A stretch of DNA of 32,694 bases from a virus (Duplodnaviria; Heunggongvirae; Uroviricota; Caudoviricetes). Where the stretch lies: positions 1-32,694 of IMG/VR virus record IMGVR_UViG_3300002756_000060; one strand, written 5' to 3'. Numbering within the stretch: position 1 is the stretch's first letter; each line of letters begins with the position of its first letter. A program made the position numbers and the translations under genes. The notes beneath the pieces were generated by a model that did no database searches, was not told the origin of the DNA, and was given only the letters and a program-made list of their open reading frames with translations. This document shows, in pieces, positions 829 to 22,225 of this stretch.

Positions 829-832
<4 letters not shown>
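401..832 (+). CDS. hypothetical protein
   Basis: 143-aa ORF; its stop overlaps the hsdR start (ATGA at 829-832), suggesting translational coupling; no recognisable domain. Confidence 0.45.
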
Positions 833-3960
<3,128 letters not shown>

Positions 3961-4220
3961 TCGTGGCCACAAAAATATTGGTGGCAAAGGCCGAAAATCG
4001 GGCATTCGCTGTGGTTTTCACCGAGGTCTACTTTGCGGATAAAGTGAGCTTTCGCTGGGCACGCGCGAGTGTGCGCTTATCCTAAAATGACTTCGGAGAG
4101 ACTGGGTCGTTTGGAACCGTTCGCTCACTCGGCCTTGTCTGGCGGCCATGGCCCTTCGCCGACGATCATCCGCGCGGAAGACCATCATTGCCGTTTTTTG
4201 AGAATACTACATAATGCACA

Positions 4221-5219
4221 GTGGAGGTGACTTTTTTGGATTCTTACCTGCAGATCGCGCAGACAGTTCTGAGATCGGCCCGCCGCCCTATGGGGGCAAA
4301 GGCCATTCTCGACGTGGCCTATCAAGCGGGAGTGGTGCCCAAGCACTTATACGGAAAGACTCAGCAAAAAACCCTCCAGGCACGGTTGAGCGAGGAAATT
4401 CTTCATCATCGCGAGACATCCCCGTTCTACCGGACCAAGCCAGGGCAGTTTTTCCTGACCGAGTTTCTCGATGCCGATGATGTCCCGGTGGAGTGGAAGA
4501 CGCCCTTTCCCGCCCGTCGTCGGACGCGCGATCTGACGCGTGACAACACGCTGGCCGTGAGGGGGTCATTCCTTGACCGGTGGCGCCGGAGGACGGCGGA
4601 CGCGGACAGTTTCTTCCAAGCGGCGGAGGCCGAGGGTGCGATGGCCTATATGCATCCCAAAGAGATGAGTGCGCAAGGCTACTGCGCCACGTGGACCTTT
4701 GCAATGGTCGTTAAGGACGACTGCACCCTTGCCTATAGGGTTGGGCGCTACCGCGACGATCGCGACAACTACGCCATGCAGCGATCGATCGGCTTCCCCG
4801 GTCCACTTACAGTCGAAGACATGACGCTGTTTTCGCGCGACCGGCTCGGAGCCGAGGACAGCGCCGCGGACGTTCTGATCCAAGATTTGGACCTTTCCTA
4901 TGCGTCCTTCCATGGCCGCGAAAAGCACCTCCCGAAGATCGACCATGTCATGGTCGTGGACGAGGCAGAGTCGCTGAACGTTGTGATCGTGCTGTCGTGG
5001 CAGTGTCCCGAATGGTTCGAGCCGACGACGCGGCGCATGTCGCTCAACGACCCGCACTGGCTCTGCACTTCGATCCGGCATAACGATTTAAATGACTTCG
5101 AACCGTGGAGTTCTAGGATTCTGGCCGCGCGGGCCGCGGATAGGGAGCGCACGACAGTTGGCCACGAAACGGATCACGGAACAGCAAGCGGCCTTTCTCG
5201 TGTCAGAGTTGACGAGTAG
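4221..5219 (+). CDS. HARE-HTH-like DNA-binding domain protein (N-terminal winged-helix; C-terminal ~230 aa of unknown function)
   Basis: N-terminus DSYLQIAQTVLRSARRPMGAKAILDVAYQAGVV...TLQARLSEEILHHRETSPFYRTKPGQFFLTEFL fits the HARE-HTH pattern; GGAGG at 4223-4227 upstream of alternative TTG at 4236, so the exact start (GTG 4221 / TTG 4236) is uncertain. Confidence 0.6.
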   Translation: MEVTFLDSYLQIAQTVLRSARRPMGAKAILDVAYQAGVVPKHLYGKTQQKTLQARLSEEILHHRETSPFYRTKPGQFFLTEFLDADDVPVEWKTPFPARRRTRDLTRDNTLAVRGSFLDRWRRRTADADSFFQAAEAEGAMAYMHPKEMSAQGYCATWTFAMVVKDDCTLAYRVGRYRDDRDNYAMQRSIGFPGPLTVEDMTLFSRDRLGAEDSAADVLIQDLDLSYASFHGREKHLPKIDHVMVVDEAESLNVVIVLSWQCPEWFEPTTRRMSLNDPHWLCTSIRHNDLNDFEPWSSRILAARAADRERTTVGHETDHGTASGLSRVRVDE

Positions 5220-6840
5220 GGAAGATTCTCGCCGTCAGAAGGTCGCTCTCCAAAATCTTAGCCGCCTTTATCGAACCGGCCATCGGTTCGCCCCGGAGAC
5301 TGCGCCGCGCGTTGAGCAGCAGATCGTAGGGCTGACCAACATGAGCCGCGACGAAAAGGTCGTGCGGTGGGGACTGAACACCCTTGCGCAACTTGGCACC
5401 AAGGACAGCGCCGAGAGCGTCGAGTTGGCAATCAAGCGCCACGAAACCAAGCCCGAGATCGTGGCGGCAGGCATCTCGGCCCTAGCCCGCCTGCGCGCGG
5501 GCCAACTGTCCGGCATTGCGGCTTTACGTAGCGTCCCGCCGGAGGTTCAGATGCTCGCGGCTATGCAAACCGTAGATCCCAAGCGGTTAGCCGTCGACGG
5601 GCTCCAAATCGACCTCGATGTGGCCGATCCAGAGATATTGAAGCTGGCTCTGATCGTCGTCGGGCTCGATCGGGATGTGCAGCATCTACTCCATCCCAAG
5701 CACGAAAACGGCGTCATTGTGCGGGAACTCGGGCAACACGACGATCCCATCGTGCGCCAATACGCAGTTTGGGCCGTGATCGAAAATCGTCGACTGTCGA
5801 TCGCCCATCTCGGCATCGATATCAATCGCATCGAAGATCAGCCAGCGAACGTGCAGTCGAAGCTACTGCAACTTGTCTCGTCCTCTCTGCCCGACCTCAA
5901 TCAACGGCATGAAGCAATCTTGCGGGGAGCCGATCTTCCTACAGTCGACGCGCGTGAGGGTCTCGCCAAAGGTCTTCTGCACGCACACTATGACGGCCTT
6001 GCAGAGATAACGCTGGACTGGTTCGATATTGAAGGAAGCGGCCGCGTGAAGTTGCATCTAGCAGAACATTTCGCGCGTTTCGCTGACGACCAGCCAAGTT
6101 ATCGCGTCAAGGCCTTGGAACTCGTCGAGAGCGGCGGCAACCTGCGCGAGCGGGTCCTGCTGGGTGCGGAAGGGACAGCCTTCTTCAGCGACATCAGGAA
6201 AGCGGAAGGGCAAGCATCACTGGGACTCTTTGGTCTCGGGGGAGACGAACAAATGGCACGACTGGAGAAGGCGGTTCGCATCATGAATAGGGAAACTGTG
6301 CTGGTGCTCAATGCGACACCCGACGACTTAGGGCGCATTCGGGCAGACAAGGAGGGCGCGTTGCTTGAGCGCCAATTGGAGACCGTTAAGAACCGGGAGC
6401 GCGATCTTCTCGTCGTTCAAAAGTTCGCGGTCCGCCTGCAGGACATCCAAAAGGAGCTCCTTAACCATCGGCCGAAGATCCTGCACTTCAGCGGGCATGG
6501 TGGCGTCGGCGTGCTGTGTTTTGAGAAGGACGACGGGACAGAGGCCTTGATCGCCGGAGACGTTCTTGCTGAGATTCTGGACGTCTATGGAGAGCTTGAG
6601 TGCCTAGTTCTCCACGCTTGCTACACAGAAAGTGTTGCGCGGGCCTGTGCGAAACACGTTGGCGTCGTAATTGGCTCGACAGATGCTATCGACGACGAAA
6701 CCGCTCCGAAGTTCACCTACGCATTCTATCAGGCCTTGGCGAACGGCCGTCCCTACGAGAACGCATTCAGGGCTGGACAGGTCGAAGTCAGAACCGCTAG
6801 CGAGGTGGCCGCAGCCTGCTACAAGCTGTTCACCCGCTAA
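5092..6840 (+). CDS. HEAT-like repeat protein with C-terminal CHAT (caspase-like) protease domain
   Basis: C-terminus ILHFSGHGG...ECLVLHACYTESVARACAKHVGVVIGSTDAIDDETAPKFTYAFYQALANGRPYENAFRAGQ matches the CHAT His/Cys dyad and FY..L..G tail; N-terminal helical repeats (VVRWGLNTLAQLG, IVRQYAVWAVIEN). Start uncertain: ATG 5092 overlaps the upstream gene by 128 nt; GTG 5200, TTG 5209 and ATG 5341 are alternatives. Confidence 0.7.
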   Translation: MTSNRGVLGFWPRGPRIGSARQLATKRITEQQAAFLVSELTSREDSRRQKVALQNLSRLYRTGHRFAPETAPRVEQQIVGLTNMSRDEKVVRWGLNTLAQLGTKDSAESVELAIKRHETKPEIVAAGISALARLRAGQLSGIAALRSVPPEVQMLAAMQTVDPKRLAVDGLQIDLDVADPEILKLALIVVGLDRDVQHLLHPKHENGVIVRELGQHDDPIVRQYAVWAVIENRRLSIAHLGIDINRIEDQPANVQSKLLQLVSSSLPDLNQRHEAILRGADLPTVDAREGLAKGLLHAHYDGLAEITLDWFDIEGSGRVKLHLAEHFARFADDQPSYRVKALELVESGGNLRERVLLGAEGTAFFSDIRKAEGQASLGLFGLGGDEQMARLEKAVRIMNRETVLVLNATPDDLGRIRADKEGALLERQLETVKNRERDLLVVQKFAVRLQDIQKELLNHRPKILHFSGHGGVGVLCFEKDDGTEALIAGDVLAEILDVYGELECLVLHACYTESVARACAKHVGVVIGSTDAIDDETAPKFTYAFYQALANGRPYENAFRAGQVEVRTASEVAAACYKLFTR

Positions 6841-7136
6841 AAGACTCAGGCTTGTCGATTTCTTCCACTCTGATTTGAGCTGACATGACAGCCGCGTTAT
6901 ATACTTCGCCCGTTCCTAACGACTCATTCTGCTTTTCAGAACGTGGCGGGAAGTAGGTCCAGATCGGATCGAAACGCCAACTTGGAAACCCGAGTTTCCT
7001 TGAACCAAACCTTCGCAGCGCATTCCTTGAAGGTCCCCTTGGGCCGAGAGTGCACCCTCCCATTGGTTCCTCCCTGGCCCCGAACGTATACGGGGGGGCG
7101 CAGCGCGGCAGTTTTCCAGCGTCTGGCCTTTTCACC

Positions 7137-7325
7137 GGGGAATCCAGGCGGAATCCACCTGCCGAGTCATCCTGGAAAAAGCGACTCATTATCAAGGACT
7201 TGCCGAATCACGACCTGGCCAGGGTGGATTCTTTTACCGAATCCAGGGAATCCAGTTCGCGGAAGCCACAGCGCCGGAAGCCAGCCAGCGGAAGCCACCT
7301 GATGGGAAGCCATTGAATCCAGGTG
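7137..7325. repeat. Array of at least 10 short GGAA(T/G)CCA motifs in both orientations
   Basis: ggggaatccagg, cggaatccacc, gggtggattc (inverted), ccgaatccaggg, gggaatccag, cggaagccaca, ccggaagccagcc, gcggaagccacc, gggaagccattg, tgaatccaggtg. Confidence 0.6.
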
Positions 7326-7335
7326 CATTTTTCGT

Positions 7336-7419
7336 TTGACAAAGCTGCCCCCCTTGACTCATACCTTGATAATCGAAGAATGGCGCCCGGAGGAAACTCT
7401 CGCGGGCGTTTTTGTTTTT
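7336..7419 (+). promoter_or_regulatory. Promoter-like TTGACA/TTGACT/GATAAT elements followed by a GC stem (CGCCCG 7384-7389 / CGGGCG 7403-7408) and T-run tttttgttttt; candidate leader attenuator or terminator
   Basis: TTGACA at 7336-7341, TTGACT at 7354-7359, GATAAT at 7368-7373; hairpin plus U-tract; the same arrangement is conserved at 22422-22510. Confidence 0.4.
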
Positions 7420-7505
7420 CCAACATCGCGGACCCTGATGCTGTCGCCGACCGGTGCGGTCGCGCTCTCGCGTCTGTCCGCGTCTCACCACAGCAGAGAG
7501 ACCCC

Positions 7506-8768
7506 ATGGACCTTGTCTTCGCGCCAAGCGAGATCGAGGCGTGGCCGATCGAGCGGCTGCGCCCCTATGCCCGCAATGCCAAGATGCATGGTGAGGACCA
7601 GGTGGCCAAGATCGCCGCCAGCATGGCGAAGTTCGGCTGGACGGTGCCCTGCATGGTGTCCGACGATGGCGAGTTGATTGCCGGGCATGGCCGGGTACTG
7701 GCGGCCGCAATGCTGGGGCTGAAGGATGTGCCGGTGATCCGGCTGGCGCATCTGGACGAGGCCGAGCGGCGGGCCTACCGGATCGCCGACAACAAGCTCA
7801 CGGAACTCGGCGATTGGGACGAGACCGTGCTGCGCGACGAGATCGCGGGGCTGCTGGCCGAGGATTTCGACCTGTCGCTGCTGGGGATCGGCGACGATGA
7901 TCTGGATGCGCTGCTGCGCGACCCCGAAGCGCAGGACGGCGACGGCCCGATCGAGGGCGAGGACGACGTTCCGGAACCGCCGGTCACGCCGGTCTCGGTG
8001 GCGGGCGATCTCTGGCAGCTTGGCGCGCATCGACTGATCTGCGGCGACAGCACTGCGGCGGACGTGGTCGGGCGCCTGCTGGGCGATGTGCGCCCCCTGC
8101 TGATGGTGACCGATCCGCCCTATGGCGTGGAATACGATCCGTCCTGGCGAAACCAGGCGGGCGCCGCCAAGACCAAACGCACCGGCAAGGTGCTCAACGA
8201 TGACCGCGCCGACTGGCGCGAGGCCTGGGCGCTGTTTCCGGGCGACGTCGCCTATGTCTGGCACGGTGCGCTGCATGCCGCCGAGGTGGCGGAGTCGCTG
8301 ATCGTCTCGGGTTTTGCCATCCGCTCGCAGATCATCTGGGCCAAGGACCGGCTGGTGCTCAGCCGAGGCGATTACCACTGGCAGCATGAACCGTGCTGGT
8401 ATGCGGTGCGTACCAAGGGCAAGGGCCACTGGGCCGGCGATCGCAAGCAGACGACGCTGTGGCAAATCGCAAACAAGGATCAGGATGTGGCCACCGTCCA
8501 CGGCACGCAAAAGCCCGTCGAGTGCATGCGCCGCCCGATCCTCAACAACTCGAACGCCGGTCAGGCGGTCTATGAGCCCTTCATGGGATCGGGCACGACG
8601 CTGATCGCGGCGGAAACCACCGAACGGATCTGCTACGGGGTCGAGCTCAACCCGGCCTATGTCGATGTCGCCGTCAAGCGCTGGCAGTCCTTCACCGGCG
8701 CGGAAGCGGTGCTGGCGGACACCGGCGAGAGCTTTGCCAGCCTCAAGGCCAAACGGATGGCTGCATGA
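7506..8768 (+). CDS. ParB-like nuclease domain fused to DNA methyltransferase (beta-class, motif IV DPPY; N6-adenine type predicted)
   Basis: N-terminal ParB-type motif (RPYARNAKMHG...IAGHGRVLAA...YRIADNKLTELG); motif IV LMVTDPPYG; motif I YEPFMGSGTTLIAAE. The ORF is open from 7323 but the start is called at ATG 7506 by alignment with the paralog at 22593. Confidence 0.85.
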   Translation: MDLVFAPSEIEAWPIERLRPYARNAKMHGEDQVAKIAASMAKFGWTVPCMVSDDGELIAGHGRVLAAAMLGLKDVPVIRLAHLDEAERRAYRIADNKLTELGDWDETVLRDEIAGLLAEDFDLSLLGIGDDDLDALLRDPEAQDGDGPIEGEDDVPEPPVTPVSVAGDLWQLGAHRLICGDSTAADVVGRLLGDVRPLLMVTDPPYGVEYDPSWRNQAGAAKTKRTGKVLNDDRADWREAWALFPGDVAYVWHGALHAAEVAESLIVSGFAIRSQIIWAKDRLVLSRGDYHWQHEPCWYAVRTKGKGHWAGDRKQTTLWQIANKDQDVATVHGTQKPVECMRRPILNNSNAGQAVYEPFMGSGTTLIAAETTERICYGVELNPAYVDVAVKRWQSFTGAEAVLADTGESFASLKAKRMAA

Positions 8769-10132
8769 GCATGCATTTGCGTCCCAGCCAGATCGAGTTC
8801 TGGCCGCTGGACCGCCTCAAGCCCTATGCCCGCAACGCCAAGACCCATGACGCCGATCAGGTGGCGCGGATCGCCGCCAGCATGGCCGAGTTCGGCTGGA
8901 CCGTGCCCTGCCTGGTTGGCGACGATGGCGACCTGATCGCGGGCCATGGTCGCGTTCTTGCCGCCGCGCAGCTGGGCCTGGCGGAGGCACCCGTCATCGT
9001 GCTGGGCCATCTGACCGAGGCGCAGCGCCGGGCCTATCGCATCGCCGACAACAAGCTGACCGAGTTGGGCGGCTGGGACGAGGGCCTGCTGCTGGAGGAA
9101 CTGCGGGGGCTTATGGCCGCCGAGTTCGACCTCGGGCTGATCGGCATCCCCGAGGACGAGCTGGATGCCCTGCTGCGCGACGCCGATGACGACAGTGTGC
9201 CCATCGACGACGACACAGCCGATACCATCCCGGAGCCCCCGGCCGAGCCGATCACCCGGCCCGGCGATATCTGGGCGCTGGGCGCGCACCGGCTGATCTG
9301 CGGCGATGCCACCGACGCGGATGTCGTGGCCAGGCTTATGGAGGGCGCGCAGTCGTCGCTGATGTTCACCTCGCCGCCCTACGCCCAGCAGCGCGACTAT
9401 GGCGCGGCCAGGGAGACGGTGGGCGACTGGGACGCGCTGATGCAGGGCGTCTTCGCGGCGGCACCGGTCACCGACGCGGCCCAACTGCTGGTCAATCTCG
9501 GCCTCGTGCATCGCGACGGTGAGTGGCTCCCCTATTGGGAGCGCTGGGTCGAGTGGATGCGCAGCTCTGGCTGGCGGCGCTTCGGCTGGTATGTCTGGGA
9601 TCAGGGGCCGGGCCTGCCCGGCGACTGGAATGGCCGCCTCGCGCCCTCGCACGAGTTCATCTTCCACTTCAACCGCCAACCCCGGAAGCCCAACAAGACG
9701 GTGCCGTCCAAGCACGCGGGCGAAACCTTGGGCGGCGGTGGGCTGCGCGGGGTCAACGGCACCGTCCACGCCAAGCGAGGGGCCGGCAACGCGATCCAGA
9801 GCCATCGCATCCCGGACTCGGTGTTTCGTATCATGCGCCACAAGGGCGGGCTGGGTGCTGCCGGATCGCATCCGGCCGTGTTCCCGGTGGCGCTGGTCGA
9901 GGCCGTGCTGACCGCGTTCAGCGATCCAGGCGACCTGATCTACGAGCCGTTCTGTGGCTCCGGCACGCAGATCGTTGCCGCCGAACGCGCTGGGCGGCGC
10001 TGCTTCGCGATGGAGCTGGATCCGGTCTATTGCGACGTCGCCATGCGGCGATGGGAACTGGCGACGGGGCGGACGGCGCAGTTGGAAAATCGCAACGAGA
10101 CCACCATTGGCAAGGAGACAAAACAGCAATGA
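8765..10132 (+). CDS. ParB-like nuclease domain fused to DNA methyltransferase (beta-class, motif IV SPPY; N4-cytosine type predicted)
   Basis: ParB-type N-terminus (KPYARNAKTHDADQVARIAASMAEFGW...); motif IV LMFTSPPYAQQRDYG; motif I YEPFCGSGTQIVAAE; ATGA overlap with the upstream gene at 8765-8768. Confidence 0.85.
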   Translation: MSMHLRPSQIEFWPLDRLKPYARNAKTHDADQVARIAASMAEFGWTVPCLVGDDGDLIAGHGRVLAAAQLGLAEAPVIVLGHLTEAQRRAYRIADNKLTELGGWDEGLLLEELRGLMAAEFDLGLIGIPEDELDALLRDADDDSVPIDDDTADTIPEPPAEPITRPGDIWALGAHRLICGDATDADVVARLMEGAQSSLMFTSPPYAQQRDYGAARETVGDWDALMQGVFAAAPVTDAAQLLVNLGLVHRDGEWLPYWERWVEWMRSSGWRRFGWYVWDQGPGLPGDWNGRLAPSHEFIFHFNRQPRKPNKTVPSKHAGETLGGGGLRGVNGTVHAKRGAGNAIQSHRIPDSVFRIMRHKGGLGAAGSHPAVFPVALVEAVLTAFSDPGDLIYEPFCGSGTQIVAAERAGRRCFAMELDPVYCDVAMRRWELATGRTAQLENRNETTIGKETKQQ

Positions 10133-10638
10133 TCATCGACACCCCGATCTGGCGAAACGCCGACCTCATTCGGATCATTCCGATCACACGCGCGGACCTG
10201 AACCAGGCCATATCCCGAAACGACTTTCAGCCTGAAAACACACCCAAGCCCGGAAAGGCGCGCTGGTACAGCTGGAGAGACGTGGTGTCGGTTGCTGCCG
10301 CACAGGACTTGCGCAAACTTGGCTTTGGTCCGTCCATCGCATTTAGGCTGGTGCAAAACCACCTGTCACCGTTTCTGCGGGGTAGCATAGACGCCCCGGA
10401 CGATTGCGCAGGAGTGCTTTGGCTTATCCGTCCAAGTGACGACCATCTCAACATTGAGACCCCGTGTGAGTTCCTGCGCCACACCGAATACGAGGCACTC
10501 CTTGTCACGCCAGACGAGAGCGCCTGCATCATCGTGAATATCGGTCGCATTGCAGCACGCGTTCGCGATGACCTGCAGGCGACCGAGACCGCCAAGGTCA
10601 TCCGTGAGGAATTTCAGATCACGGGACCGGTGATGTGA
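10129..10638 (+). CDS. hypothetical protein (169 aa)
   Basis: ATG 10129 overlaps the upstream stop (ATGA); AAGGAGA Shine-Dalgarno at 10112-10118; conserved paralog at 25216-25725. Confidence 0.6.
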   Translation: MIIDTPIWRNADLIRIIPITRADLNQAISRNDFQPENTPKPGKARWYSWRDVVSVAAAQDLRKLGFGPSIAFRLVQNHLSPFLRGSIDAPDDCAGVLWLIRPSDDHLNIETPCEFLRHTEYEALLVTPDESACIIVNIGRIAARVRDDLQATETAKVIREEFQITGPVM

Positions 10639-10844
10639 CCCAATCGCGCGGCATGTCGCTGATCGAGGCCATCACCAATGTCGCGGTGGGCTATGCGCTG
10701 GCCGTCGCCGCGCAGATCGCGGTTTTCCCGTGGTTCGGCCTGCATGCGAGCATTGGCGAGAACCTCACCATCGGCGCCCTGTTCACCGGCATCTCGCTGC
10801 TGCGCAGCTACGCGCTGCGCAGGCTGTTCGAACGCTGGTGGTAA
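10635..10844 (+). CDS. small hydrophobic (probable membrane) protein, 69 aa
   Basis: GTG start overlapping the upstream stop (GTGA); two hydrophobic stretches (VAVGYALAVAAQIAVFPWFG, LTIGALFTGISLL); conserved paralog at 25722-25937. Confidence 0.5.
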   Translation: MTQSRGMSLIEAITNVAVGYALAVAAQIAVFPWFGLHASIGENLTIGALFTGISLLRSYALRRLFERWW

Positions 10845-10853
10845 CGCGCGGGA

Positions 10854-11309
10854 TCAAGCCGTGTCGAGCTTGTACACGGTGCCACGCCCGTCAACTTTCT
10901 CGGCAGTGACGGGCAGGCCCAGCTTCTTCTTGAGCCCGCCCGAGATCAGGCCACGTGCACTATGCGGCTGCCACGAGGTCGCCTCGACAATCTCGGCGAT
11001 GGATGCGCCCTCGGGCCGCTGAATGAGCGCGATGATCTGCGCCTGCTTCGTGCCCGAGCGGATGGCGACGGGTTTTGCGGTGTCCGCAGCTTCGGGCGTC
11101 GGTGCGACATCGGGCTTGGGCTTTCCCTTCCGCGCGCTGGCGACAGCGCTGACCACCACCGGCTCGATCCCGATGGCCTCCAGCCCGGCCTCGGTGGCGA
11201 TCAGCGTGGTGCCATGACCGTCACCGGTCTCGCGCCAGAGCGGCTCGCCGCGGCGGCTGTCGGCATCGACCTCCTCGATCCAGCCATTGGTGATCATGCG
11301 AGTGAACAC
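10854..11309 (-). CDS. DUF3489-like protein, probably a 5'-truncated copy
   Basis: Aligns with the C-terminal ~150 aa of the 193-aa paralog at 26938-27519 (WRETGDGHGTTLIATEAGL...SIAEIVEATSW...GRGTVYKL); start abuts a divergent gene at 11312 with no promoter space. Confidence 0.5.
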   Translation of the reverse strand: MFTRMITNGWIEEVDADSRRGEPLWRETGDGHGTTLIATEAGLEAIGIEPVVVSAVASARKGKPKPDVAPTPEAADTAKPVAIRSGTKQAQIIALIQRPEGASIAEIVEATSWQPHSARGLISGGLKKKLGLPVTAEKVDGRGTVYKLDTA

Positions 11310-11311
11310 CG

Positions 11312-12058
11312 ATGAGCCTGCATCCCGGTACGGATCGCTACAACCCGGCTGGGAACAGCGACTTCACCCGCAAGGCGGAGGCGCTGGCGCTGGGCATCCC
11401 CAACTGGTCGACACCGAAGGCGACAGACGGCGCGAAGGGTGGGCCGGGCCAGAGCTATGGCTCGGGCGGGACGCCACCCCTGCCCGCGCAGGCGGCACAA
11501 TGGCAGACGCCGGTGGCCGACGACCAGATGGATCGGCTGCGTGGCAAGATCAACAGCCGGGGCGAGCCGAAGCTATCGGCACAGGCGCTGCAATGGCCGA
11601 CCCCGGCGGCGCAGAACTGGAAGGGGAGCAGCCCGGCCAGCGTGACGCGGGCGGATGGCAAGAGCCGGATGGATATCCTGCATTACCGGGCGGAGCAGGG
11701 CTTCACCCACCCGGCCCCGGCGATCATGCGGCATGGGCGGCAGTGCTCGCGACACGCCCCGATCTCACGCCCGCTGTGGGCTTCGATGATTGCCTCGCAT
11801 GGGCGCGGCGCATGTCGGCGGCTCCTGAAGGGCCGCTCACGGCGGCGGCTGAACCCGCTCTTCGTCGGATGGTTGATGGGCTGGCCCATCGGTCACGCGC
11901 TCTGCGCCTGCTCGGCAACGGAGTTCATCCTCTGGCAGCAGCGCATGCGTGGCGCGCTCTCGCAGCTGCCCATGGCCTCGGGCCCGTGGATCTGGCGGCC
12001 ATCGGACGAGGCCCAGCGCCCCGCGCAGATGACGCTGTTTGAGGTGTGGTCTGAATGA
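11312..12058 (+). CDS. hypothetical protein with three W-x-TP motifs
   Basis: 248-aa ORF; NWSTPKATDGAKGG, QWQTPVADDQ, QWPTPAAQNWKGSS; stop overlaps the next ATG (ATGA at 12055-12058). Confidence 0.5.
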   Translation: MSLHPGTDRYNPAGNSDFTRKAEALALGIPNWSTPKATDGAKGGPGQSYGSGGTPPLPAQAAQWQTPVADDQMDRLRGKINSRGEPKLSAQALQWPTPAAQNWKGSSPASVTRADGKSRMDILHYRAEQGFTHPAPAIMRHGRQCSRHAPISRPLWASMIASHGRGACRRLLKGRSRRRLNPLFVGWLMGWPIGHALCACSATEFILWQQRMRGALSQLPMASGPWIWRPSDEAQRPAQMTLFEVWSE

Positions 12059-12717
12059 CGATACAAGGAAAGATCGGGCGGCCAGGCGGCCAAAAAACCA
12101 AACGCGCGCTGGGCGTGCAGGCGGCGCTGGAATGGGCCTTTGGCGTGGAAAAGGCACAGCTGGAACTGCCCCTACCGAAGGGCGTGGCCGAGGAAGGCTT
12201 CGGCTTTGGGCTCGAATACGTGCTGCTGCAACGCGCCATACTTGGCTGCAAGATCGACGGCGGCCAACACAAGTTGGGTGGCTATGTGCACGTGGACGCC
12301 GAGGTGATCGCCGCCACCGTCGCGGGCATGCCCGACACCTTGGGTGGTAAGCGCATGGCGATCCGGGTCGCGGAACTGGCACGCGCCGGGCTGACCCCGG
12401 ACTGGATGCCCAGGGCCGTGCCGCGCTGCGTGCCCGTCGATATCAAGCGCAACCGGCATGGTGATCGCGCGGTCAGCGTCGTGGTCGGCACCGCCCGCGC
12501 GCTGATCAGCGGCAAGTGGCGCATCGTCGAGGTCCGCGCCTGCCCCGTCACCTTCACCCCAACCCCACACCAGATCGACGCCGCCCGCCAAGCCTATGAC
12601 GACTGGTGGCAGGCACTGGACTGGGTACGGGATGGGCTTATCGCGGGCGACATGCTGCGGGAGATTGATGTGACAGGGGCGATGCCGAGCGTGCGGCCGT
12701 GGGCTGCAAAGCCTTGA
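12055..12717 (+). CDS. hypothetical protein (220 aa)
   Basis: Translationally coupled to the upstream gene; no recognisable motif. Confidence 0.5.
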   Translation: MTIQGKIGRPGGQKTKRALGVQAALEWAFGVEKAQLELPLPKGVAEEGFGFGLEYVLLQRAILGCKIDGGQHKLGGYVHVDAEVIAATVAGMPDTLGGKRMAIRVAELARAGLTPDWMPRAVPRCVPVDIKRNRHGDRAVSVVVGTARALISGKWRIVEVRACPVTFTPTPHQIDAARQAYDDWWQALDWVRDGLIAGDMLREIDVTGAMPSVRPWAAKP

Positions 12718-12778
12718 TCTTGCGCTCGGCACAAAGAATTCACTCGAAGCGCTGGCATTCAGCAAGTAAGCCTAAGGT

Positions 12779-15652
12779 ATGTTCACCGCTTACCATGGCA
12801 AATATACCGCATATGATCTTACGAAGCTGGCGCCGCCCGGCTCGGACGATCAGTTGTCAATGTCGTTGTTCGATGCATCGGTTGATCTCAATCCTCATCA
12901 GATTGAGGCCGCGATGTTCGCGCTTCAATCGCCGCTGGCTGAAGGCGCGATACTTGCGGATGAGGTCGGCCTCGGCAAAACCATCGAGGCAGGCATTGTC
13001 CTTTGCCAGAAATGGGCTGAGCGAAAACGGAAACTAATCATCATCTGCCCAGCGGCCATTCGACAGCAGTGGGCTGCAGAACTGACGAACAAGTTCAATC
13101 TTCCCGCAGTCGTCATTGACGCTCGGACCTATCGACAGATGAAGATGGAAGGCATTCCATTCCCTTTGTCACAGAAGCGGATCGTCGTGCTATCCTATCA
13201 TTATGCTGCAAAGCTTCAGGATGAGCTTCGGCAAGTCGATTGGGATCTGGTTGTTATCGACGAAGCGCACAAGCTTCGTAACTCGTACCGACCCAGCAAT
13301 CGCATCGGGCAAGCTCTTCAACGAGCAGTCGAAGGCCGCAAAAAGCTCCTGCTGACGGCTACTCCCCTCCAAAACAGCTTGATGGAGATATTCGGGCTTA
13401 CGAACTTCATTGATCCAAACATTTTCGGCGATGCCAACAGCTTCCGGTCGAAGTATGTGAATGCCGGTGGCGATCTGCCCGAGCTTCGCGCAAGGCTCGC
13501 GGATTTCTGCAAGCGCACGCTTCGGAAGCAGGTTCTCGAGTATGTCAAATATACTCAGCGCCGTGCCATCACGCAGCCATTCTCGCCGGCGGAGAACGAG
13601 CAGGCGCTGTATGACGGCATTACGCGCTTCCTACAACGAGAGGACACCTATGCAATACCCTCTCAACAGCGCCATCTAACCGTTCTTATCCTGCGGAAGC
13701 TTCTCGCTTCGTCATCACAGGCCATCGCAGGGACGCTTGAGACCCTACGCGCCCGCTTGGTAGCCCTGCAGAAAGGGGAACCGGTAAAGGATGATCTGGC
13801 GGAGGTGATTTCATTCGAGAACGAGCTCGAAGAAGAAATTCTCGACGAATGGGATGATGACGATGCGCAAGACCCCACAGGGGCCGAGCAAATCGACTTC
13901 GCCAAGCTTCGCCTGGAAATCGACGATATTTCAGGTCTGATCCAGCTTGCACATTCGATCCAGATCGATACTAAGTCCAAAGCGCTGCTACAGGCTCTCG
14001 AGATAGGCTTTTCGGAGCAGGAGCGGATGGGCGCACAGAGAAAAGCCCTGATCTTCACAGAGTCGCGCCGCACCCAAGACTATCTCCGCGATTTCCTCGC
14101 GCGCTACGGTTACGCCAATCAAATTGTGACCTTCAGTGGCACTAATTCCGACCGCAAGGCACAGGAAATTTACGAGCGCTGGCTTACCGATCCGAAGAGC
14201 GCCGAGCAGATTACAGGATCGCGCGCCATCGATGTTCGTGCTGCACTGATAGAAGAATTCCGCGACAATGCCTCGATCATGATCGCAACCGAGGCCGCCG
14301 CCGAGGGTGTCAACCTGCAATTCTGCTCGCAGGTCATCAACTACGACCTTCCGTGGAACCCGCAGAGGATCGAACAGCGCATCGGACGCTGCCATCGCTA
14401 TGGGCAGACGCATGATGTGATCGTCGTGAACTTCCTGAACGAACGCAACGATGCAGATAAACGGGTTCACGCGCTTCTAACCGAGAAGTTCAATCTGTTC
14501 GATGGTGTATTTGGGGCTTCAGACGAGGTCTTGGGAACGATTGAGTCCGGCGTCGACTTCGAAAAGCGCATTCTGGCGATTTACCAGGACTGCCGCACTC
14601 CGGAGGCCATCGCCGCAGCTTTTGATGAACTTCAGACCCAGCTCGAGGAACAAATTCGGAGCCGAATGGAGGATACAAGGCGGGCCCTGCTGGAGAACTT
14701 CGACGAGGATGTCCACGCCCGCCTGAAGCTGCGCCTCGCTGACGCCCGCGAACAGTTGGACCGTGTCGGGCGCCGGTTTTGGGATCTGACCACTGCTATC
14801 CTCGCCGACAAGGCCAAATTCGATGAACCAAATCTGGCCTTCGACCTTCTGGCCCCGCCGACCCGCGACCTGCGACCGGGCCGCTATCACCTGATCTCGC
14901 GGAACTCGGCCGCAGACCCGGCCAAGAACGAACACGGCTATTTCCTCTACCGGCTGTCGCACCCTCTTGGCGAGCATGTCATTGAATCGGCCAAGGCCGC
15001 TGACACGCCAGTGGCCGAATTGCGGTTCGATGTGACCAATCACCCCACACGCGTGGCCATCGTCGAGGCGCTGAAAGGGCGGCGCGGCTGGCTGACGCTG
15101 CGCAAACTTGCGGTGACGACCTTCGAGACCGAGGAATACCTGCTATTCTCGGGCATCGACGACAATGGTCGCTCCATCGACCACGAAGCCTGCGCCAAGC
15201 TGTTCTCGGTCGGTGCTGGCGTTCACCCCATCGACATGCCCGCCCCTGCCATCGCCGACCTCCTTCAGGCTGAGGCCGAGCAGCATGCCAAAGCCACCTT
15301 GAACCGGTCGCTGGATGCCAACAACAAGCACTTTGCCTCGGCCCGTGAAAGGCTGGAGCGCTGGGCTGAGGACAAGGTCTACGCGGCAGAGAAGGCGCTG
15401 AAGGACACCAAGGAACAGATCAAGGGGGTGCGTCGCGAGGCGCGGGCAGCTACCACACTCGAAGAAGAAGCCGCCATCCAAGCCAAACTGCAGGAACTGG
15501 AACGTCGCCAGCGCAAGCAGCGGCAGGAAATCTTCAACCAGGAAGACGAAGTGGCCGACAAGCGGGACGAGTTGATCGCCAACCTTCAAAAGCGGCTCAG
15601 CCGTGGCCACTCGGTTGAATCGCTGTTTACGGTCCGCTGGGCCGTCGTGTAG
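12779..15652 (+). CDS. SNF2-family (SF2) helicase/ATPase
   Basis: Motif I LADEVGLGKTIEAG; motif II LVVIDEAHKLRN; motif III LLLTATPLQNSLMEIFGL; C-terminal helicase motifs ALIFTESRRT, IMIATEAAAEGVNLQ, DLPWNPQRIEQRIGRCHRYGQ; AT-richer codon usage than neighbours. Confidence 0.9.
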   Translation: MFTAYHGKYTAYDLTKLAPPGSDDQLSMSLFDASVDLNPHQIEAAMFALQSPLAEGAILADEVGLGKTIEAGIVLCQKWAERKRKLIIICPAAIRQQWAAELTNKFNLPAVVIDARTYRQMKMEGIPFPLSQKRIVVLSYHYAAKLQDELRQVDWDLVVIDEAHKLRNSYRPSNRIGQALQRAVEGRKKLLLTATPLQNSLMEIFGLTNFIDPNIFGDANSFRSKYVNAGGDLPELRARLADFCKRTLRKQVLEYVKYTQRRAITQPFSPAENEQALYDGITRFLQREDTYAIPSQQRHLTVLILRKLLASSSQAIAGTLETLRARLVALQKGEPVKDDLAEVISFENELEEEILDEWDDDDAQDPTGAEQIDFAKLRLEIDDISGLIQLAHSIQIDTKSKALLQALEIGFSEQERMGAQRKALIFTESRRTQDYLRDFLARYGYANQIVTFSGTNSDRKAQEIYERWLTDPKSAEQITGSRAIDVRAALIEEFRDNASIMIATEAAAEGVNLQFCSQVINYDLPWNPQRIEQRIGRCHRYGQTHDVIVVNFLNERNDADKRVHALLTEKFNLFDGVFGASDEVLGTIESGVDFEKRILAIYQDCRTPEAIAAAFDELQTQLEEQIRSRMEDTRRALLENFDEDVHARLKLRLADAREQLDRVGRRFWDLTTAILADKAKFDEPNLAFDLLAPPTRDLRPGRYHLISRNSAADPAKNEHGYFLYRLSHPLGEHVIESAKAADTPVAELRFDVTNHPTRVAIVEALKGRRGWLTLRKLAVTTFETEEYLLFSGIDDNGRSIDHEACAKLFSVGAGVHPIDMPAPAIADLLQAEAEQHAKATLNRSLDANNKHFASARERLERWAEDKVYAAEKALKDTKEQIKGVRREARAATTLEEEAAIQAKLQELERRQRKQRQEIFNQEDEVADKRDELIANLQKRLSRGHSVESLFTVRWAVV

Positions 15653-15685
15653 ACCAGCCGAGTAACATCAAGGAAAACAAGAACA

Positions 15686-18600
15686 ATGAGCAATTTTGAC
15701 GCCCTCGTTGCCAAGCTGCGCGAAATCTTCCAGATCGACCGGCCTGACCTCGATTTTGGCGTCTACCGTATCCTCAACGCCCGCGCGGGGGAAATCGAGG
15801 ATTACCTGTCCAAGCGTCTGAAGGCGCGGGTGGCCGAAGCACTGGCTGCCGGTGCTGCGGCCAATACCGAAACGCTGAAGGCCGCGATTGAGAAAGCGCG
15901 CGAAGCTGCTGAGGCCGCAGGGTACAATTCAGACGAAGCTCCGAGAGTTCTGAGCCTCCAGAAGGAACTTGCAGCCGCCAGCGGGGCCACGTCGGAGCAT
16001 GAAAATCAGGTCTTCTCGCACCTGTTGACCTTCTTCTCGCGCTACTACGACAAGGGCGATTTCATCAGCCAGCGCCGGTACAAGGGTGATACCTATGCCA
16101 TCCCCTATTCCGGGGAAGAGGTCGTGCTGCACTGGGCGAACCGCGATCAGTATTACATCAAAAGCGGAGAATCCTTCTCGAACTTCAGCTTCAAGCTGGA
16201 TGACGGTCGACTTGTGCATTTCCGCCTTGTCGCTGCCGATACGGCCAAAGACAACCGCAAGGATAACGACAAGGAGCGCCGCTTCGTTCTGGCCACCGAG
16301 CGCACGGTCACGCGCCTTGACGAGGAGGGCGAGGGTTTTGAAGAAACCATCCGTCCGATCGAGGAAGAGGATGGCGCGCTGGTCATCCGGTTCGACTTTG
16401 CAGCACAGCCCAAAGGGACCAAGCAAGAAAAACTGGTTGAGGCGGCGGTGGAAACCATTCTGGACAGCGAGACTTTCAAATCGAGATGGCTGGAACTGAC
16501 CAACCGCGCGCCGACGGAAAAGAAACCGCAGCGCACCTTGCTGGAAAAGCACCTGACGACCTACACGCAAAAGAACACCGCCGATTACTTCATTCACAAG
16601 GATCTGGATGGTTTTCTGCGGCGCGAACTGGATTTCTACATCAAGAACGAGGTGATGAACCTGGACGATGTGCAGGAGGCCGGGGCCTTTGCCGCCATCG
16701 AAAGAAACCTACGGATGATCCAATGCCTGCGGGCCATCGCTCTGGACCTGATTACCTTTCTGGCCAGCATCGAGAATCTCCAGAAAAAGCTATGGCTGAA
16801 AAAGAAATTCGTGGTGGCGGCGCAGTATTGCGTGACGCTGGACCGGGTGCCGGAGGCGCTTTACCCGGCTATCGCGGCGAACCCCGCGCAATGGGCGCAG
16901 TGGCATGATCTGGGGATGCGGGCATCCGCGGCGCCGGGGACGGTGGAGGATCTGAAAGCCGCGCCCTTCCTGATGGTGGACACCGCGCTCTTTGATGCGG
17001 GTTTCCGGGCTGACCTGTTGAAGGCGATCCCCGATCTGGATGCTAGCCTCGACGGGCTGCTGGTTCATGGGGACAATTTTCAGGCGCTGAACCTTTTGCA
17101 GGATCGATACCGGGAAAAGGTCAAATCAATCTATATCGACCCGCCTTACAACACTGACGCAGGACCGATCAGTTACAAGAACGGCTACCGGAGTTCGTCG
17201 TGGGTTGCCATGATGCACGACCGCGTGAAACTCGGGCGTGAGCTATTGCCTCTCGACGGGTTGCTCACCGCCACGATCGATGACTATCAGTACCGTGAAT
17301 TGCACTTCGCCATTGAAGAGGTTTTTGGCGCTCAAAACCTCGCAGGTACCGTTGTAATCCGAATGAACCCGTCTGGCCGCCCGCTCCCACAAGGCTTCGC
17401 ACAGTCCCACGAATACGCAATCGTCGCGAAGCGGTCAGACTTAGCTCAGATCGAGAACTTACCGAGAAGCGAGAAGCAGAACGCCAGATATAAGCACCGC
17501 GATGACGACGGTCAGATGTACATGTGGGAACTGTTCAGAAAGCGCGGATCGAATTCCGAAAGAACTGACCGGCCTTCGCTGTATTATCCGATCTATCTCC
17601 GGGGTGAGGACTTTCGGGTTCCCCGAATGACTTATGATCCTGATCGCAAGGATTGGGATATTCATGAAGAACCGGATACCGACGAAAGCGTCATCTACCC
17701 TATTGACGACAACGGAACCTTGCGCACGTGGCGTGGCTCACCGGATGATTTGATCGATAATCCAAGCAACTATCGTGTGAAGATCGAGGACAGCAAAGTC
17801 ACGGTCTACTACAAGTTTCGCCCCAACTCTGAGGGTGTGCTTCCGCTCACCAACTGGATCGATGCCAAATACTCCGCAACGGAGCATGGAACGGGATATC
17901 TCAAGAACTTCTTTTCGGAATACAACGTTTTCTCCTATCCGAAGTCGATCTACGCGGTTGAAGACTGCATCAGGGTTGGTGGCGCAACGGCCAATGCAAC
18001 CGTCCTCGACTATTTTGCAGGATCGGGCACGACTGGACACGCAGTCATAAACTTGAACCGGTCCGACCAAGGGTCTCGAAAGTACATCTTGGCCGAGCAA
18101 GGCGCTTACTTCGAAACTGTCATTAAGCCACGCTTAAAGAAGGCAGTGTTTTCTGCTGATTGGTCAGAGGGTAAACCCACCGCCCCCGAAACCGGCATCA
18201 GCCATGCCTTCAAGGTACTCAAGATCGAGGGCTATGAGGACACGCTGAACAATCTTGATCTGAAGCGTTCGGAGGCGCAGGCCAGTCTTCTGGAACGGTT
18301 CAGCGCCGACAAGCGCGACGACTATTTGATGCGCTACATGCTGGATGTCGAGGGACGCGGCTCGCTCCTGTCCATCTCGGATTTCCGCAAGCCCTTTGAC
18401 TACTCGCTCAAGGTCGCCGTCGACAGCGCCGGGGCCTGGGAGGAGCGCAAGGTCGATCTGGTCGAGACCTTCAACTACCTGATCGGCCTGACCGTCCGCC
18501 ATATCGACATCCAGCTTCGCCAAGGCTTCGCCACGGTCGAGGGCTGGTTGCCAACGGGTGAGCGGACCCTGATCCTGTGGCGCGACTGCGATAAAATCGG

Positions 18601-18805
18601 CTATGAGGAATTGACGCGCCTGTGCGACAAACTGGCGATTAACCCGGCCGACAGCGAATACGACGTGGTCTACATCAACGGCGACCACAATATCCCCTCG
18701 GTGGTGGAAACGACCGAGGAAGAGGGCAGCGTTATCAAGAAGCTGATGCTGCGCCAGATCGAACCCGCCTTCCTCGATGCGATGTTCAACGTGGATGACG
18801 TCTGA
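15686..18805 (+). CDS. Type III Mod-like beta-class DNA methyltransferase with ~480-aa N-terminal extension
   Basis: LLVHGDNFQALNLLQDRYREKVKSIYIDPPYNT (motif IV) precedes VLDYFAGSGTTGHAV (motif I); AAGGAAA Shine-Dalgarno at 15670-15676; 1039 aa. Confidence 0.85.
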   Translation: MSNFDALVAKLREIFQIDRPDLDFGVYRILNARAGEIEDYLSKRLKARVAEALAAGAAANTETLKAAIEKAREAAEAAGYNSDEAPRVLSLQKELAAASGATSEHENQVFSHLLTFFSRYYDKGDFISQRRYKGDTYAIPYSGEEVVLHWANRDQYYIKSGESFSNFSFKLDDGRLVHFRLVAADTAKDNRKDNDKERRFVLATERTVTRLDEEGEGFEETIRPIEEEDGALVIRFDFAAQPKGTKQEKLVEAAVETILDSETFKSRWLELTNRAPTEKKPQRTLLEKHLTTYTQKNTADYFIHKDLDGFLRRELDFYIKNEVMNLDDVQEAGAFAAIERNLRMIQCLRAIALDLITFLASIENLQKKLWLKKKFVVAAQYCVTLDRVPEALYPAIAANPAQWAQWHDLGMRASAAPGTVEDLKAAPFLMVDTALFDAGFRADLLKAIPDLDASLDGLLVHGDNFQALNLLQDRYREKVKSIYIDPPYNTDAGPISYKNGYRSSSWVAMMHDRVKLGRELLPLDGLLTATIDDYQYRELHFAIEEVFGAQNLAGTVVIRMNPSGRPLPQGFAQSHEYAIVAKRSDLAQIENLPRSEKQNARYKHRDDDGQMYMWELFRKRGSNSERTDRPSLYYPIYLRGEDFRVPRMTYDPDRKDWDIHEEPDTDESVIYPIDDNGTLRTWRGSPDDLIDNPSNYRVKIEDSKVTVYYKFRPNSEGVLPLTNWIDAKYSATEHGTGYLKNFFSEYNVFSYPKSIYAVEDCIRVGGATANATVLDYFAGSGTTGHAVINLNRSDQGSRKYILAEQGAYFETVIKPRLKKAVFSADWSEGKPTAPETGISHAFKVLKIEGYEDTLNNLDLKRSEAQASLLERFSADKRDDYLMRYMLDVEGRGSLLSISDFRKPFDYSLKVAVDSAGAWEERKVDLVETFNYLIGLTVRHIDIQLRQGFATVEGWLPTGERTLILWRDCDKIGYEELTRLCDKLAINPADSEYDVVYINGDHNIPSVVETTEEEGSVIKKLMLRQIEPAFLDAMFNVDDV

Positions 18806-22122: not shown

Positions 22123-22124
22123 GC

Positions 22125-22150: not shown

Positions 22151-22225
22151 ATGGTTCCTCCCGGGCGCGATCCGTATACGGGGGGGCTGAGCGCGGCATT
22201 TCGCTAGCGACTGGCTTTTTCACCG

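What the first reader, a model, noticed from the sequence alone, without database searches (positions are those of the whole stretch)
10854..11320. Probable rearrangement junction: truncated DUF3489 copy abuts a divergent gene with no intergenic space
DUF3489 copy A lacks about 42 N-terminal residues present in copy B. Its start (11309) and the start of the divergent plus-strand gene (11312) are 2 nt apart, leaving no room for promoters. This is consistent with a recombination breakpoint where the helicase/methylase-bearing segment joined the module.
Basis: seen in the sequence. Interest (0 to 1): 0.35.

Follow-up and report, generated by a model that had tools for sequence, protein, structure and literature searches.

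The report
Blunt join of two prophage genomes
The shortened gene marks the exact base (11305|11306) where the sequences of two different but related bacterial viruses are butted together out of register; this is either a sequence-assembly or handling artefact or a very recent accidental recombination, and not a new biological system.

Summary
A 151-codon DUF3489 ORF (10854..11309, minus strand) lacks the conserved N-terminus, and a plus-strand ORF starts 2 nt away at 11312.

The cause is a blunt breakpoint with no shared bases, between 11305 and 11306.
- Window 1..11305 is 100% identical to prophage "P1" contigs. These continue with an intact 188-aa DUF3489 gene, its upstream operon and the terminase genes.
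- Window 11306..32694 is 100% identical to prophage "P2" contigs. There the upstream DNA encodes the catalytic N-terminal half of a C5 cytosine methyltransferase.

So both genes at the junction are truncated, and neither ORF start is a native divergent start. The GTG at 11309 lies in P2-derived DNA. The ATG at 11312 starts an ORF nested in another frame of the methyltransferase gene, an architecture like M.EcoHK31I.

P1 and P2 are collinear relatives joined about 16 kb out of register. That is why the methylase-DUF3489 module appears twice.

The junction is absent from about 100 related loci and from every collection I could search. I lean towards a technical chimera (about 0.55) over a very recent illegitimate recombination (about 0.38). 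Either way it is ordinary.

The parts
7064..10844 (+). Module copy 1, from P1. It holds two ParB-like N6/N4 DNA methylases (7506..8768 and 8765..10132), a 169-aa ORF (10129..10638) and a DUF7220 gene (10635..10844).
   Evidence: Self-BLAST matches 7064..10838 to 22152..25925 at 83.7%. The region is 100% identical to P1 contigs L004, L011, L012 and L013.
10854..11305 (-). The 3' 452 nt of the P1 DUF3489 gene: codons 39 (partial) to 188 plus the stop. It is a 5'-truncated remnant that has lost its start codon, its conserved N-terminal 38 residues, its upstream operon and its promoter.
   Evidence: Pfam DUF3489 at 4e-25. In P1 contigs the gene runs on to 188 aa. 115 nt are lost. The N-terminus is nearly invariant in homologues.
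11305..11306 (.). The breakpoint: a blunt join with no shared bases (...GCGAGTGA|ACACCGATG...).
   Evidence: P1 contigs match up to 11305 and then continue CGGCCATC.... P2 contigs match from 11306 and are preceded by ...CCTGGCCC.
11306..11311 (+). The only 6 nt of native P2 sequence left upstream of ATG 11312. On the minus strand this DNA supplies the fortuitous GTG (11309-11307) that opens the 151-aa ORF.
11312..12058 (+). A 248-aa ORF in 'frame B' (phrog_27243). It is nested, in the +1 frame, inside the C5 methyltransferase gene. It carries WxTP repeats and a motif-IX-like RRRLNPLFVGWLMGWP (11840..11887). I read it as a beta-like polypeptide of an M.EcoHK31I-type two-polypeptide enzyme.
   Evidence: Third-position substitution periodicity in frame B. 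PHROG hits. The start codon is conserved in 72 of 74 loci (ATG 70, TTG 1, GTG 1). The precedent is described in PMC2836561.
11306..12042 (+). The 3' remnant of the C5 methyltransferase ORF in 'frame A' (alpha-like; 437 aa in P2). Motifs I-VIII are deleted and only the motif X region (LLGNGVHP, 11908..11931) remains. In the window this frame runs back to a spurious TTG at 11287 inside P1 DNA.
   Evidence: In P2, ORF L001 9418..10731 hits Pfam PF00145 at 9.5e-30 over residues 33-196. It also hits phrog_363 at 1.7e-53 and M.HhaI/HaeIII.
12055..12717 (+). A conserved phage gene of unknown function (phrog_9306). It is the last backbone gene before the P2 cargo.
   Evidence: PHROG hit. It is 76% identical at protein level to the P1 orthologue.
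12779..22122 (+). P2 defence cargo: a DrmD-like SNF2 helicase (12779/12914..15652), a Type III methylase (15686..18805) and a Type III restriction enzyme (18805..22122). GC content is lower here (0.52-0.60).
   Evidence: PADLOC hits DrmD 2e-203, MTase_III and REase_III. Pfam hits. Composition profile.
22152..25937 (+). Module copy 2, native to P2: methylases 22593..23855 and 23852..25219, a 169-aa ORF 25216..25725, and DUF7220 25722..25937.
26938..27519 (-). The intact DUF3489 gene, copy B (193 aa). It is the last gene of a leftward operon (27557..29414) that diverges from the terminase genes at a 139-nt control region (29415..29553).
   Evidence: Pfam hit at 3.9e-25. Gene context comes from the P2 contig L017. 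The region is 100% identical to L017.

Best explanation
Shown: window 11305|11306 is a blunt join, with no shared bases, between two different but related and collinear Rhodobacterales prophage genomes.
- P1 (window 1..11305) carries a Type I restriction-modification system plus HARE-HTH and CHAT genes as cargo.
- P2 (window 11306..32694) carries an SNF2 helicase plus a Type III restriction-modification system as cargo.

The join links a point inside P1's DUF3489 gene to a point about 16 kb 'earlier' in P2's gene order, 6 nt before the nested beta-like ORF of P2's C5 methyltransferase. This explains three features:
1. The methylase-DUF7220-DUF3489 module occurs twice.
2. DUF3489 copy A lacks 38 codons and everything upstream of it.
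3. The C5 methyltransferase has lost its catalytic half.

The two ORF starts 2 nt apart are by-products of the join, not a divergent promoter-less gene pair.

Inferred: the join was most likely made outside a cell. Candidates are end-to-end joining of two contigs during binning, scaffolding or dataset construction, or a chimeric template. I put this at about 0.55, against about 0.38 for a genuine recombinant.
For: The breakpoint itself.
- Window 1..11305 matches L011, L012 and L013 with 0 mismatches over 11,305 nt.
- Window 11306..22058 matches L001 at 100%, and 16938..32694 matches L017 at 100%. L001 and L017 come from the same 72.7-kb contig.
- Each parent continues natively past the junction position.

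Evidence for a technical origin.
- The junction 42-mer has no exact match in IMG/VR, in the JGI metagenome contigs or in the GTDB representative genomes.
- None of four junction-specific ORF products (151, 147, 101 and 251 aa) is on record in the ENA/JGI/NCBI/Logan gene index.
- All 98 related loci checked have methyltransferase DNA upstream of the ATG: 12 JGI and IMG/VR contigs, the 4 P1 and P2 contig loci themselves, 8 GTDB genomes and 74 IMG/VR loci.
- All P1-type contigs that reach that far have the full DUF3489 gene.
- One JGI sample (3300027640) holds both parents as separate contigs of 59.6 and 98 kb, each 100% identical to its half of the window.
- P2's left flank in those contigs is an integrase and chromosomal or defence genes, not P1's right arm. 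The parents are therefore not in tandem there.
- There are no substitutions relative to either parent.
- The right breakpoint falls immediately after a site that is polymorphic among relatives (C/T at -1), and 7 nt from the end of another public contig (L036). Contigs tend to end at such places.
- The product would be about 16 kb longer than either parent, and both junction genes are destroyed.
Against: - There is no repeat at the junction: 0 nt are shared, and the longest exact repeat between the two module copies is 84 nt and lies elsewhere. A de Bruijn-graph mis-join, the commonest kind of assembly chimera, is therefore mechanistically unlikely.
- The two halves are joined in the same orientation and come from phages that do meet and recombine in this community. 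L003 is a natural in-register P2/P1 recombinant.
- The left breakpoint does not coincide with any recognisable contig-end signal.
- I do not know the window's provenance and I have no reads.
Confidence: 0.55

Rival explanations
1. The junction is a genuine, very recent illegitimate (non-homologous) recombination in a cell carrying both prophages. It would be either an out-of-register crossover between P1 and P2 genomes, or a deletion between two same-orientation prophages. The result is a hybrid, probably defective, prophage. It stacks both defence cargos, keeps one intact and one truncated DUF3489 gene, and leaves the P2 methyltransferase without its catalytic half.
For: - A blunt junction without a repeat is what end-joining or template switching gives, and is hard to obtain from a de Bruijn-graph assembler.
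- Both parents co-occur in the same samples.
- Recombination between these two lineages is documented by L003.
- The two halves are in the same orientation and belong to the same phage family.
Against: - The junction was not seen in any independent contig or collection, although each parent was recovered many times.
- The parents are not adjacent in the long parental contigs.
- The hybrid would exceed either parent by about 16 kb, so it is unlikely to be packaged.
- There is no divergence from either parent.
- The right breakpoint lies 6 nt before a conserved ORF start. A random break would land within 10 nt upstream of some gene start only a few percent of the time.
Confidence: 0.38
2. A helicase/methylase cassette inserted into a single phage's module at the DUF3489 gene.
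For: The GC content drops over 12.8-22 kb, and defence genes lie to the right of the junction.
Against: - An insertion needs two junctions and the remainder of the target gene on the far side. Here there is one junction only. Everything to its right, out to 32694, is contiguous native P2 including its own complete module and DUF3489 gene.
- The cargo sits at its normal place in P2, between the phrog_9306 gene and the methylase pair. P1 carries different cargo at the same place.
Confidence: 0.03
3. A natural short DUF3489 isoform and a natural divergent gene pair that share a compact or overlapping control region.
For: Both ORFs are open and have start codons 2 nt apart.
Against: - All 120 best homologues are 183-204 aa long with a nearly invariant N-terminus.
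- The 100%-identical allele is 188 aa long in every other contig.
- The GTG start lies in DNA of the other parent.
- No promoter-like site was found near the junction.
Confidence: 0.02

Closest known systems
Mosaic junctions between temperate phages made by illegitimate recombination (the modular, mosaic view of phage genome evolution; established knowledge, cited from memory)
   Same: There is an abrupt switch between two recognisable parental sequences, with no homology at the join. The joined segments are gene modules of related phages.
   Different: Junctions that persist in nature usually lie at gene boundaries and keep genes intact, and they are found in more than one genome. This one cuts two genes, duplicates 16 kb, shows no divergence from the parents and is seen only once. 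The natural recombinant in this family (L003) is in register and lies in a 93%-identical stretch.
Chimeric or concatenated contigs in metagenome assemblies and bins
   Same: Two sequences that exist separately in the same community are joined. The join has no independent support. One breakpoint lies right after a polymorphic site and close to a public contig end.
   Different: Typical assembler chimeras pass through a shared repeat of at least k bases, and there is none here. Bin concatenations normally carry an N spacer, and there is none here.
M.EcoHK31I, a two-polypeptide C5 cytosine methyltransferase whose beta chain is encoded in another reading frame inside the alpha gene (PMC2836561, PMC3404938)
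   Same: In parental P2 and P1, one long ORF (frame A) carries motifs I-VIII and motif X. A second ORF nested in the +1 frame carries a motif-IX-like segment. The ORF starting at window 11312 is that nested ORF.
   Different: Here the nested ORF also carries the WxTP-repeat region, which matches the middle of single-chain phage methyltransferases (phrog_1008). The alpha frame shows no amino-acid-level constraint there. Homology to M.EcoHK31I itself was not tested. The two-polypeptide expression is inferred, not shown. In the window the alpha ORF is truncated.
DUF3489 (PF11994) proteins of alphaproteobacterial prophages
   Same: The C-terminal DUF3489 domain is intact (residues 84-147 of the remnant). 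In the model of copy B this domain folds as a helix-helix-helix-strand-strand unit.
   Different: The remnant lacks the conserved N-terminal 38 residues, the native start and the operon context found in all relatives.

Membership tests
Full-length prophage DUF3489 protein (PF11994) | C-terminal DUF3489 domain | tested here: met
   Pfam hit at 4e-25 over residues 84-147 of the remnant.
Full-length prophage DUF3489 protein (PF11994) | Conserved N-terminal segment MPKLTDTQ..AAAKMAV and a length of about 183-204 aa | tested here: not met
   The segment is absent from copy A. It is present and nearly invariant in the homologues aligned, and all 120 best hits are 183-204 aa long.
Full-length prophage DUF3489 protein (PF11994) | Position as the last gene of the leftward small-gene operon that diverges from the terminase genes | tested here: not met
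   This context is present for copy B and in all P1 contigs. For copy A it is replaced by P2 methyltransferase DNA.
In-vivo illegitimate recombination junction between phages | Two identifiable parental sequences with different continuations on each side of one point | tested here: met
In-vivo illegitimate recombination junction between phages | Independent observation of the junction (another contig, genome or reads) | tested here: not met
   No exact match in three collections, no junction-specific protein on record, and none of 98 related loci carries it. Reads could not be tested.
De Bruijn-graph assembly chimera | A shared repeat of at least k bases at the join | tested here: not met
   0 nt are shared at the junction. 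The longest exact repeat between the module copies is 84 nt, at 10383/25470.
Technical chimera of any kind | Lack of spanning reads in the source data | not testable with these tools
   No reads are available and the window's provenance is unknown.
M.EcoHK31I-type two-polypeptide C5 methyltransferase | An alpha ORF with motifs I-VIII and X in one frame | tested here: not met
   The feature is met in parental P2 (L001 9418..10731; PF00145 at 9.5e-30; phrog_363 over residues 33-414) and in 72 of 74 IMG/VR loci. In the window the ORF is cut after motif VIII, so only the motif X part remains.
M.EcoHK31I-type two-polypeptide C5 methyltransferase | A beta ORF nested in another frame of alpha and carrying motif IX | tested here: met
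   Frame B is the frame under third-position-type variation from 0 to +420 and from +540 to +600. Frame B residues 174-196 match phrog_10223 positions 36-58, while frame A matches positions 54-101. The start codon is kept in 72 of 74 loci.
M.EcoHK31I-type two-polypeptide C5 methyltransferase | Both polypeptides are made and both are required for methylation; sequence homology to M.EcoHK31I | not testable with these tools
   No expression data are available, and the M.EcoHK31I sequence is not held. In three distant relatives (L120, L122, L124) coding-like frame-B sequence extends upstream of the ATG, so the mode of expression remains open.

The most novel reading that the evidence does not exclude
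The join is a real, very recent out-of-register recombination between two co-resident Rhodobacterales prophages, and it stacks two different defence cargos in one element: Type I restriction-modification plus HARE-HTH/CHAT, and SNF2 plus Type III restriction-modification. Its right breakpoint sits at the start of the nested beta ORF of an EcoHK31I-like C5 methyltransferase because that conserved stretch acts as a module boundary or exchange point. The result is an orphan beta (specificity) ORF that could pair with the P1 alpha chain.
Probability: 0.08. Interest if true: 0.5.

Novelty: already known. Interest (0 to 1): 0.2.

Why it matters
The practical point is that the window is a composite of two genomes. 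Any inference that reads across 11305|11306 is unsafe until the join is verified. Examples are "this phage has two DUF3489 genes and two methylase modules", "two defence systems are carried in one element", or claims about operon structure.

If the join is real, it is a snapshot of how prophages can double their defence cargo through an accidental out-of-register crossover, before selection has tidied the product.

Separately, the work exposed a systematic mis-annotation. In this widespread prophage family the C5 methyltransferase is called as a "hypothetical" 217/248-aa protein plus a spurious antisense ORF. It is in fact a two-frame (alpha plus nested beta) gene.

Tried and rejected
- Exact look-ups of four possible junction-specific products found nothing on record: DUF3489 remnants of 151, 147 and 101 aa, and the 251-aa alpha remnant.
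- Exact scans for the 42-nt junction in IMG/VR, GTDB genomes and JGI metagenome contigs found nothing.
- Megablast of 9800..12800 against GenBank phages (INPHARED) found no match.
- tBLASTn for internal paralogues of the two ORFs right of the junction found none.
- An AlphaFold model of copy B, meant to show what the lost N-terminus folds into, gave a confident C-terminal domain only. Residues 1-31 had pLDDT below 50, so no structural argument is made.
- The promoter and terminator scan found nothing near the junction. It is uninformative for this organism type.
- A programmed +1 frameshift was considered as the explanation for the two-frame methyltransferase. I rate it below the nested-ORF reading because the frame-B start codon is conserved, including ATG to TTG and ATG to GTG changes that alter frame A, and because no slippery motif is evident. 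It is not excluded.
- The primary M.EcoHK31I paper (PMC306636) is not held.
- A tandem-prophage deletion was considered as the route to a real hybrid. The long parental contigs do not show P1 and P2 adjacent.

Full report
**1. The observation**

The minus-strand ORF 10854..11309 (GTG start, 151 aa) is a DUF3489 protein, with a Pfam hit at 4e-25. The plus-strand ORF 11312..12058 (ATG start, 248 aa, no Pfam hit) starts 2 nt away.

Copy A aligns to residues 39-193 of copy B (26938..27519, minus strand, 193 aa) at 75% identity. All 120 best homologues of copy B are 183-204 aa long. Their first 38 residues (MPKLTDTQ..AAAKMAV) are nearly invariant. Copy A really does lack a conserved part of the protein.

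**2. The window contains a large direct duplication**

Self-comparison gives two matches:
- 7064..10838 matches 22152..25925 at 83.7% identity.
- 10850..11297 matches 26934..27396 at 77% identity.

The repeated unit is a 4.2-kb module: two ParB-like N6/N4 methylases, a 169-aa ORF, a DUF7220 gene and a DUF3489 gene. The homology of copy 1 stops exactly where DUF3489 copy A is cut. The ORFs right of the cut have no paralogue elsewhere in the window.

**3. Both halves exist separately, intact, in public data**

- Left half. Window 1..11305 is identical (0 mismatches over 11,305 nt) to three contigs: JGI Ga0209347_1000909, ENA ERZ27249388 k141_134684 and JGI Ga0209024_1000663. I call this prophage P1. 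Its gene order is:
  - integrase and early genes;
  - the C5 methyltransferase and a phrog_9306 gene;
  - Type I restriction-modification genes HsdM, HsdS and HsdR, then HARE-HTH and CHAT genes;
  - the methylase module and an intact 188-aa DUF3489 gene;
  - four more small minus-strand genes;
  - terminase small and large subunits, CcdAB and the portal gene.
- Right half. Window 11306..32694 is identical to a single 72.7-kb contig, ENA ERZ925084 k127_124827. I call this prophage P2. Its gene order is:
  - integrase and early genes;
  - the C5 methyltransferase and a phrog_9306 gene;
  - a DrmD-like SNF2 helicase (PADLOC 2e-203), a Type III methylase and a Type III restriction enzyme;
  - the methylase module, a NYN-domain gene and DUF3489 copy B;
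  - six small minus-strand genes;
  - the terminase genes.

P1 and P2 are collinear relatives. Their backbone is about 75-93% identical at nucleotide level, and they carry different defence cargo at the same position.

**4. The junction**

Laying the sequences side by side shows that P1 contigs follow the window up to 11305 (...GCGAGTGA) and then continue CGGCCATC.... P2 contigs are preceded by ...CCTGGCCC and follow the window from 11306 (ACACCGATG...). No base is shared.

- The P1 DUF3489 gene loses its first 115 nt.
- The GTG at 11309-11307 lies in P2-derived DNA, so the 151-aa ORF has a fortuitous start.
- On the P2 side only 6 nt remain upstream of ATG 11312.

**5. What the plus-strand gene is**

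In P1, P2, 12 further metagenome and IMG/VR contigs, 8 GTDB genomes and 74 IMG/VR loci, the DNA just upstream of this ATG encodes the N-terminal catalytic half of a C5 cytosine methyltransferase on the same strand. The genomes include Roseovarius autotrophicus, Pseudorhodobacter antarcticus and other Rhodobacterales.
- The motifs are I (LCAGGGGLDLG), IV (PCQPFS), VI (ENV) and VIII (QRLRVF).
- Pfam PF00145 hits at 9.5e-30, and the region matches M.HhaI/HaeIII.

That ORF (frame A, 437 aa in P2) stays open through to motif X, LLGNGVHP. Substitution periodicity, however, shows that the coding frame changes along the gene:
- Frame A is the coding frame up to about 10 nt before the ATG.
- Frame B (the 11312 ORF) is the coding frame from the ATG to about +420, and again over the motif-IX-like RRRLNPLFVGWLMGWP.
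- Frame A is the coding frame again over motif X.

PHROG profiles agree with this pattern.

The arrangement matches that described for M.EcoHK31I, whose beta chain (motif IX) is encoded in another frame inside the alpha gene (motifs I-VIII, TRD, X) (PMC2836561, PMC3404938). The frame-B start codon is kept in 72 of 74 loci (ATG in 70). The two non-ATG cases are TTG and GTG, changes that alter the frame-A amino acid.

ATG 11312 is therefore probably a genuine internal start, but it is not the start of a free-standing divergent gene. At the junction the alpha ORF has lost motifs I-VIII. The minus-strand ORFs of 123 and 166 aa that public pipelines call over the alpha N-terminus look spurious.

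**6. Consequences of the join**

Both genes at the join are broken, and neither ORF start marks a promoter problem that needs a biological solution.
- The DUF3489 remnant has lost its start, its N-terminus, the upstream genes of its operon and the 139-nt divergent control region. Copy B keeps all of these (27557..29553).
- Because the join links a late point of P1's gene order to an earlier point of P2's, the segment from the methyltransferase to DUF3489 is present once from each parent. The two copies are 77-84% identical rather than identical.

**7. Real or technical?**

For a technical origin:
- The junction 42-mer has no match in IMG/VR, the JGI metagenome contigs or the GTDB genomes.
- Four junction-specific ORF products are not on record in the ENA/JGI/NCBI/Logan gene index.
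- Every related locus has the native arrangement.
- One JGI sample holds both parents as separate long contigs, each 100% identical to its half of the window.
- The parents are not adjacent in those contigs.
- There is no divergence from either parent.
- The product would be about 16 kb oversized.
- The right breakpoint lies directly after a polymorphic site and 7 nt from another contig's end.

For a real event:
- There is no repeat at the join, so a graph mis-join is unlikely.
- The two halves are in the same orientation.
- These two lineages do recombine in nature. L003 is a P2-left/P1-right recombinant, but it is in register and its crossover lies in a 93%-identical stretch.

I put a technical chimera at about 0.55, a real recent illegitimate recombination at about 0.38, and the remaining readings at about 0.05 together. 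That the site is a breakpoint between two parental genomes I hold at above 0.95.

**8. Novelty**

Nothing here lies outside known kinds. Both parental prophages are already in public data, and mosaic junctions and chimeric contigs are both familiar. The one thing of wider interest is incidental: the two-frame C5 methyltransferase is conserved across about 100 prophage loci and is routinely mis-annotated. It has a described precedent in M.EcoHK31I.

Noticed in passing
window 11306..12058; L001 9418..10747; L011 1..966; 74 IMG/VR loci L047-L125; GTDB loci L039-L046: The C5 cytosine methyltransferase of this Rhodobacterales prophage family is a two-frame gene. Frame A carries motifs I-VIII and X in one open ORF. 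A nested +1-frame ORF (217-248 aa, phrog_27243) carries the WxTP-repeat region and a motif-IX-like segment, and it is the frame under selection there. This resembles M.EcoHK31I alpha/beta, but the repeat (TRD-like) region appears to sit in the nested ORF. Public annotations call the locus 'hypothetical protein' plus a spurious antisense ORF. In three distant relatives (L120, L122, L124) coding-like frame-B sequence extends upstream of the ATG, so recoding is not excluded.
   Followed up: partly
window 1..7063 versus 12718..22151: P1 and P2 carry different defence cargo at the same backbone position, between the phrog_9306 gene and the ParB-methylase pair. P1 has Type I HsdM/S/R plus a HARE-HTH protein and a CHAT-domain protein. 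P2 has a DrmD-like SNF2 helicase plus a Type III Mod and Res. Both cargo blocks have lower GC than the backbone. This looks like a prophage defence hot spot.
   Followed up: partly
window 25926..26933: An insert of about 1 kb, with a NYN-domain gene (26035..26712, plus strand) and a 43-aa ORF, lies between DUF7220 and DUF3489 in module copy 2. It is absent from P1 and from the P2-like contig L003.
   Followed up: partly
L003 (ENA ERZ27249376 k141_34056), about 9150..9650: L003 is a natural in-register recombinant. It has P2-type Type III restriction-modification genes and methylase module (99.6% identical to window 15722..25925), then switches to 100% P1-type sequence from the 169-aa ORF onwards (DUF7220, 188-aa DUF3489 and downstream genes). 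The crossover lies in the stretch where P1 and P2 are about 93% identical.
   Followed up: yes
L024 1..2404 versus L001 3912..7017: The block of integrase, a 198-aa ORF and a WYL-domain regulator is inverted between P1 and P2 relative to the early genes. The block is about 73-74% identical at nucleotide level in reverse orientation.
   Followed up: no
window 7506..8768 and 8765..10132; also 22593..23855 and 23852..25219: Each module holds two tandem, overlapping paralogous ParB-like N6/N4 DNA methylase genes that are about 73% identical to each other at nucleotide level.
   Followed up: no
L011 20088..20629; L020 113..756: Toxin-antitoxin pairs sit at variable places around the terminase genes in relatives. 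A CcdB/CcdA pair follows the large terminase in P1. A PIN/PhdYeFM pair lies next to the small-terminase-like gene in a Logan contig. Neither is present in the window.
   Followed up: no
window 10844..10854: The convergent DUF7220 (plus strand) and DUF3489 (minus strand) genes end only 9 nt apart, with no terminator-like hairpin. In the window, transcription from the methylase operon could therefore read through the antisense DUF3489 remnant into the P2 genes.
   Followed up: no
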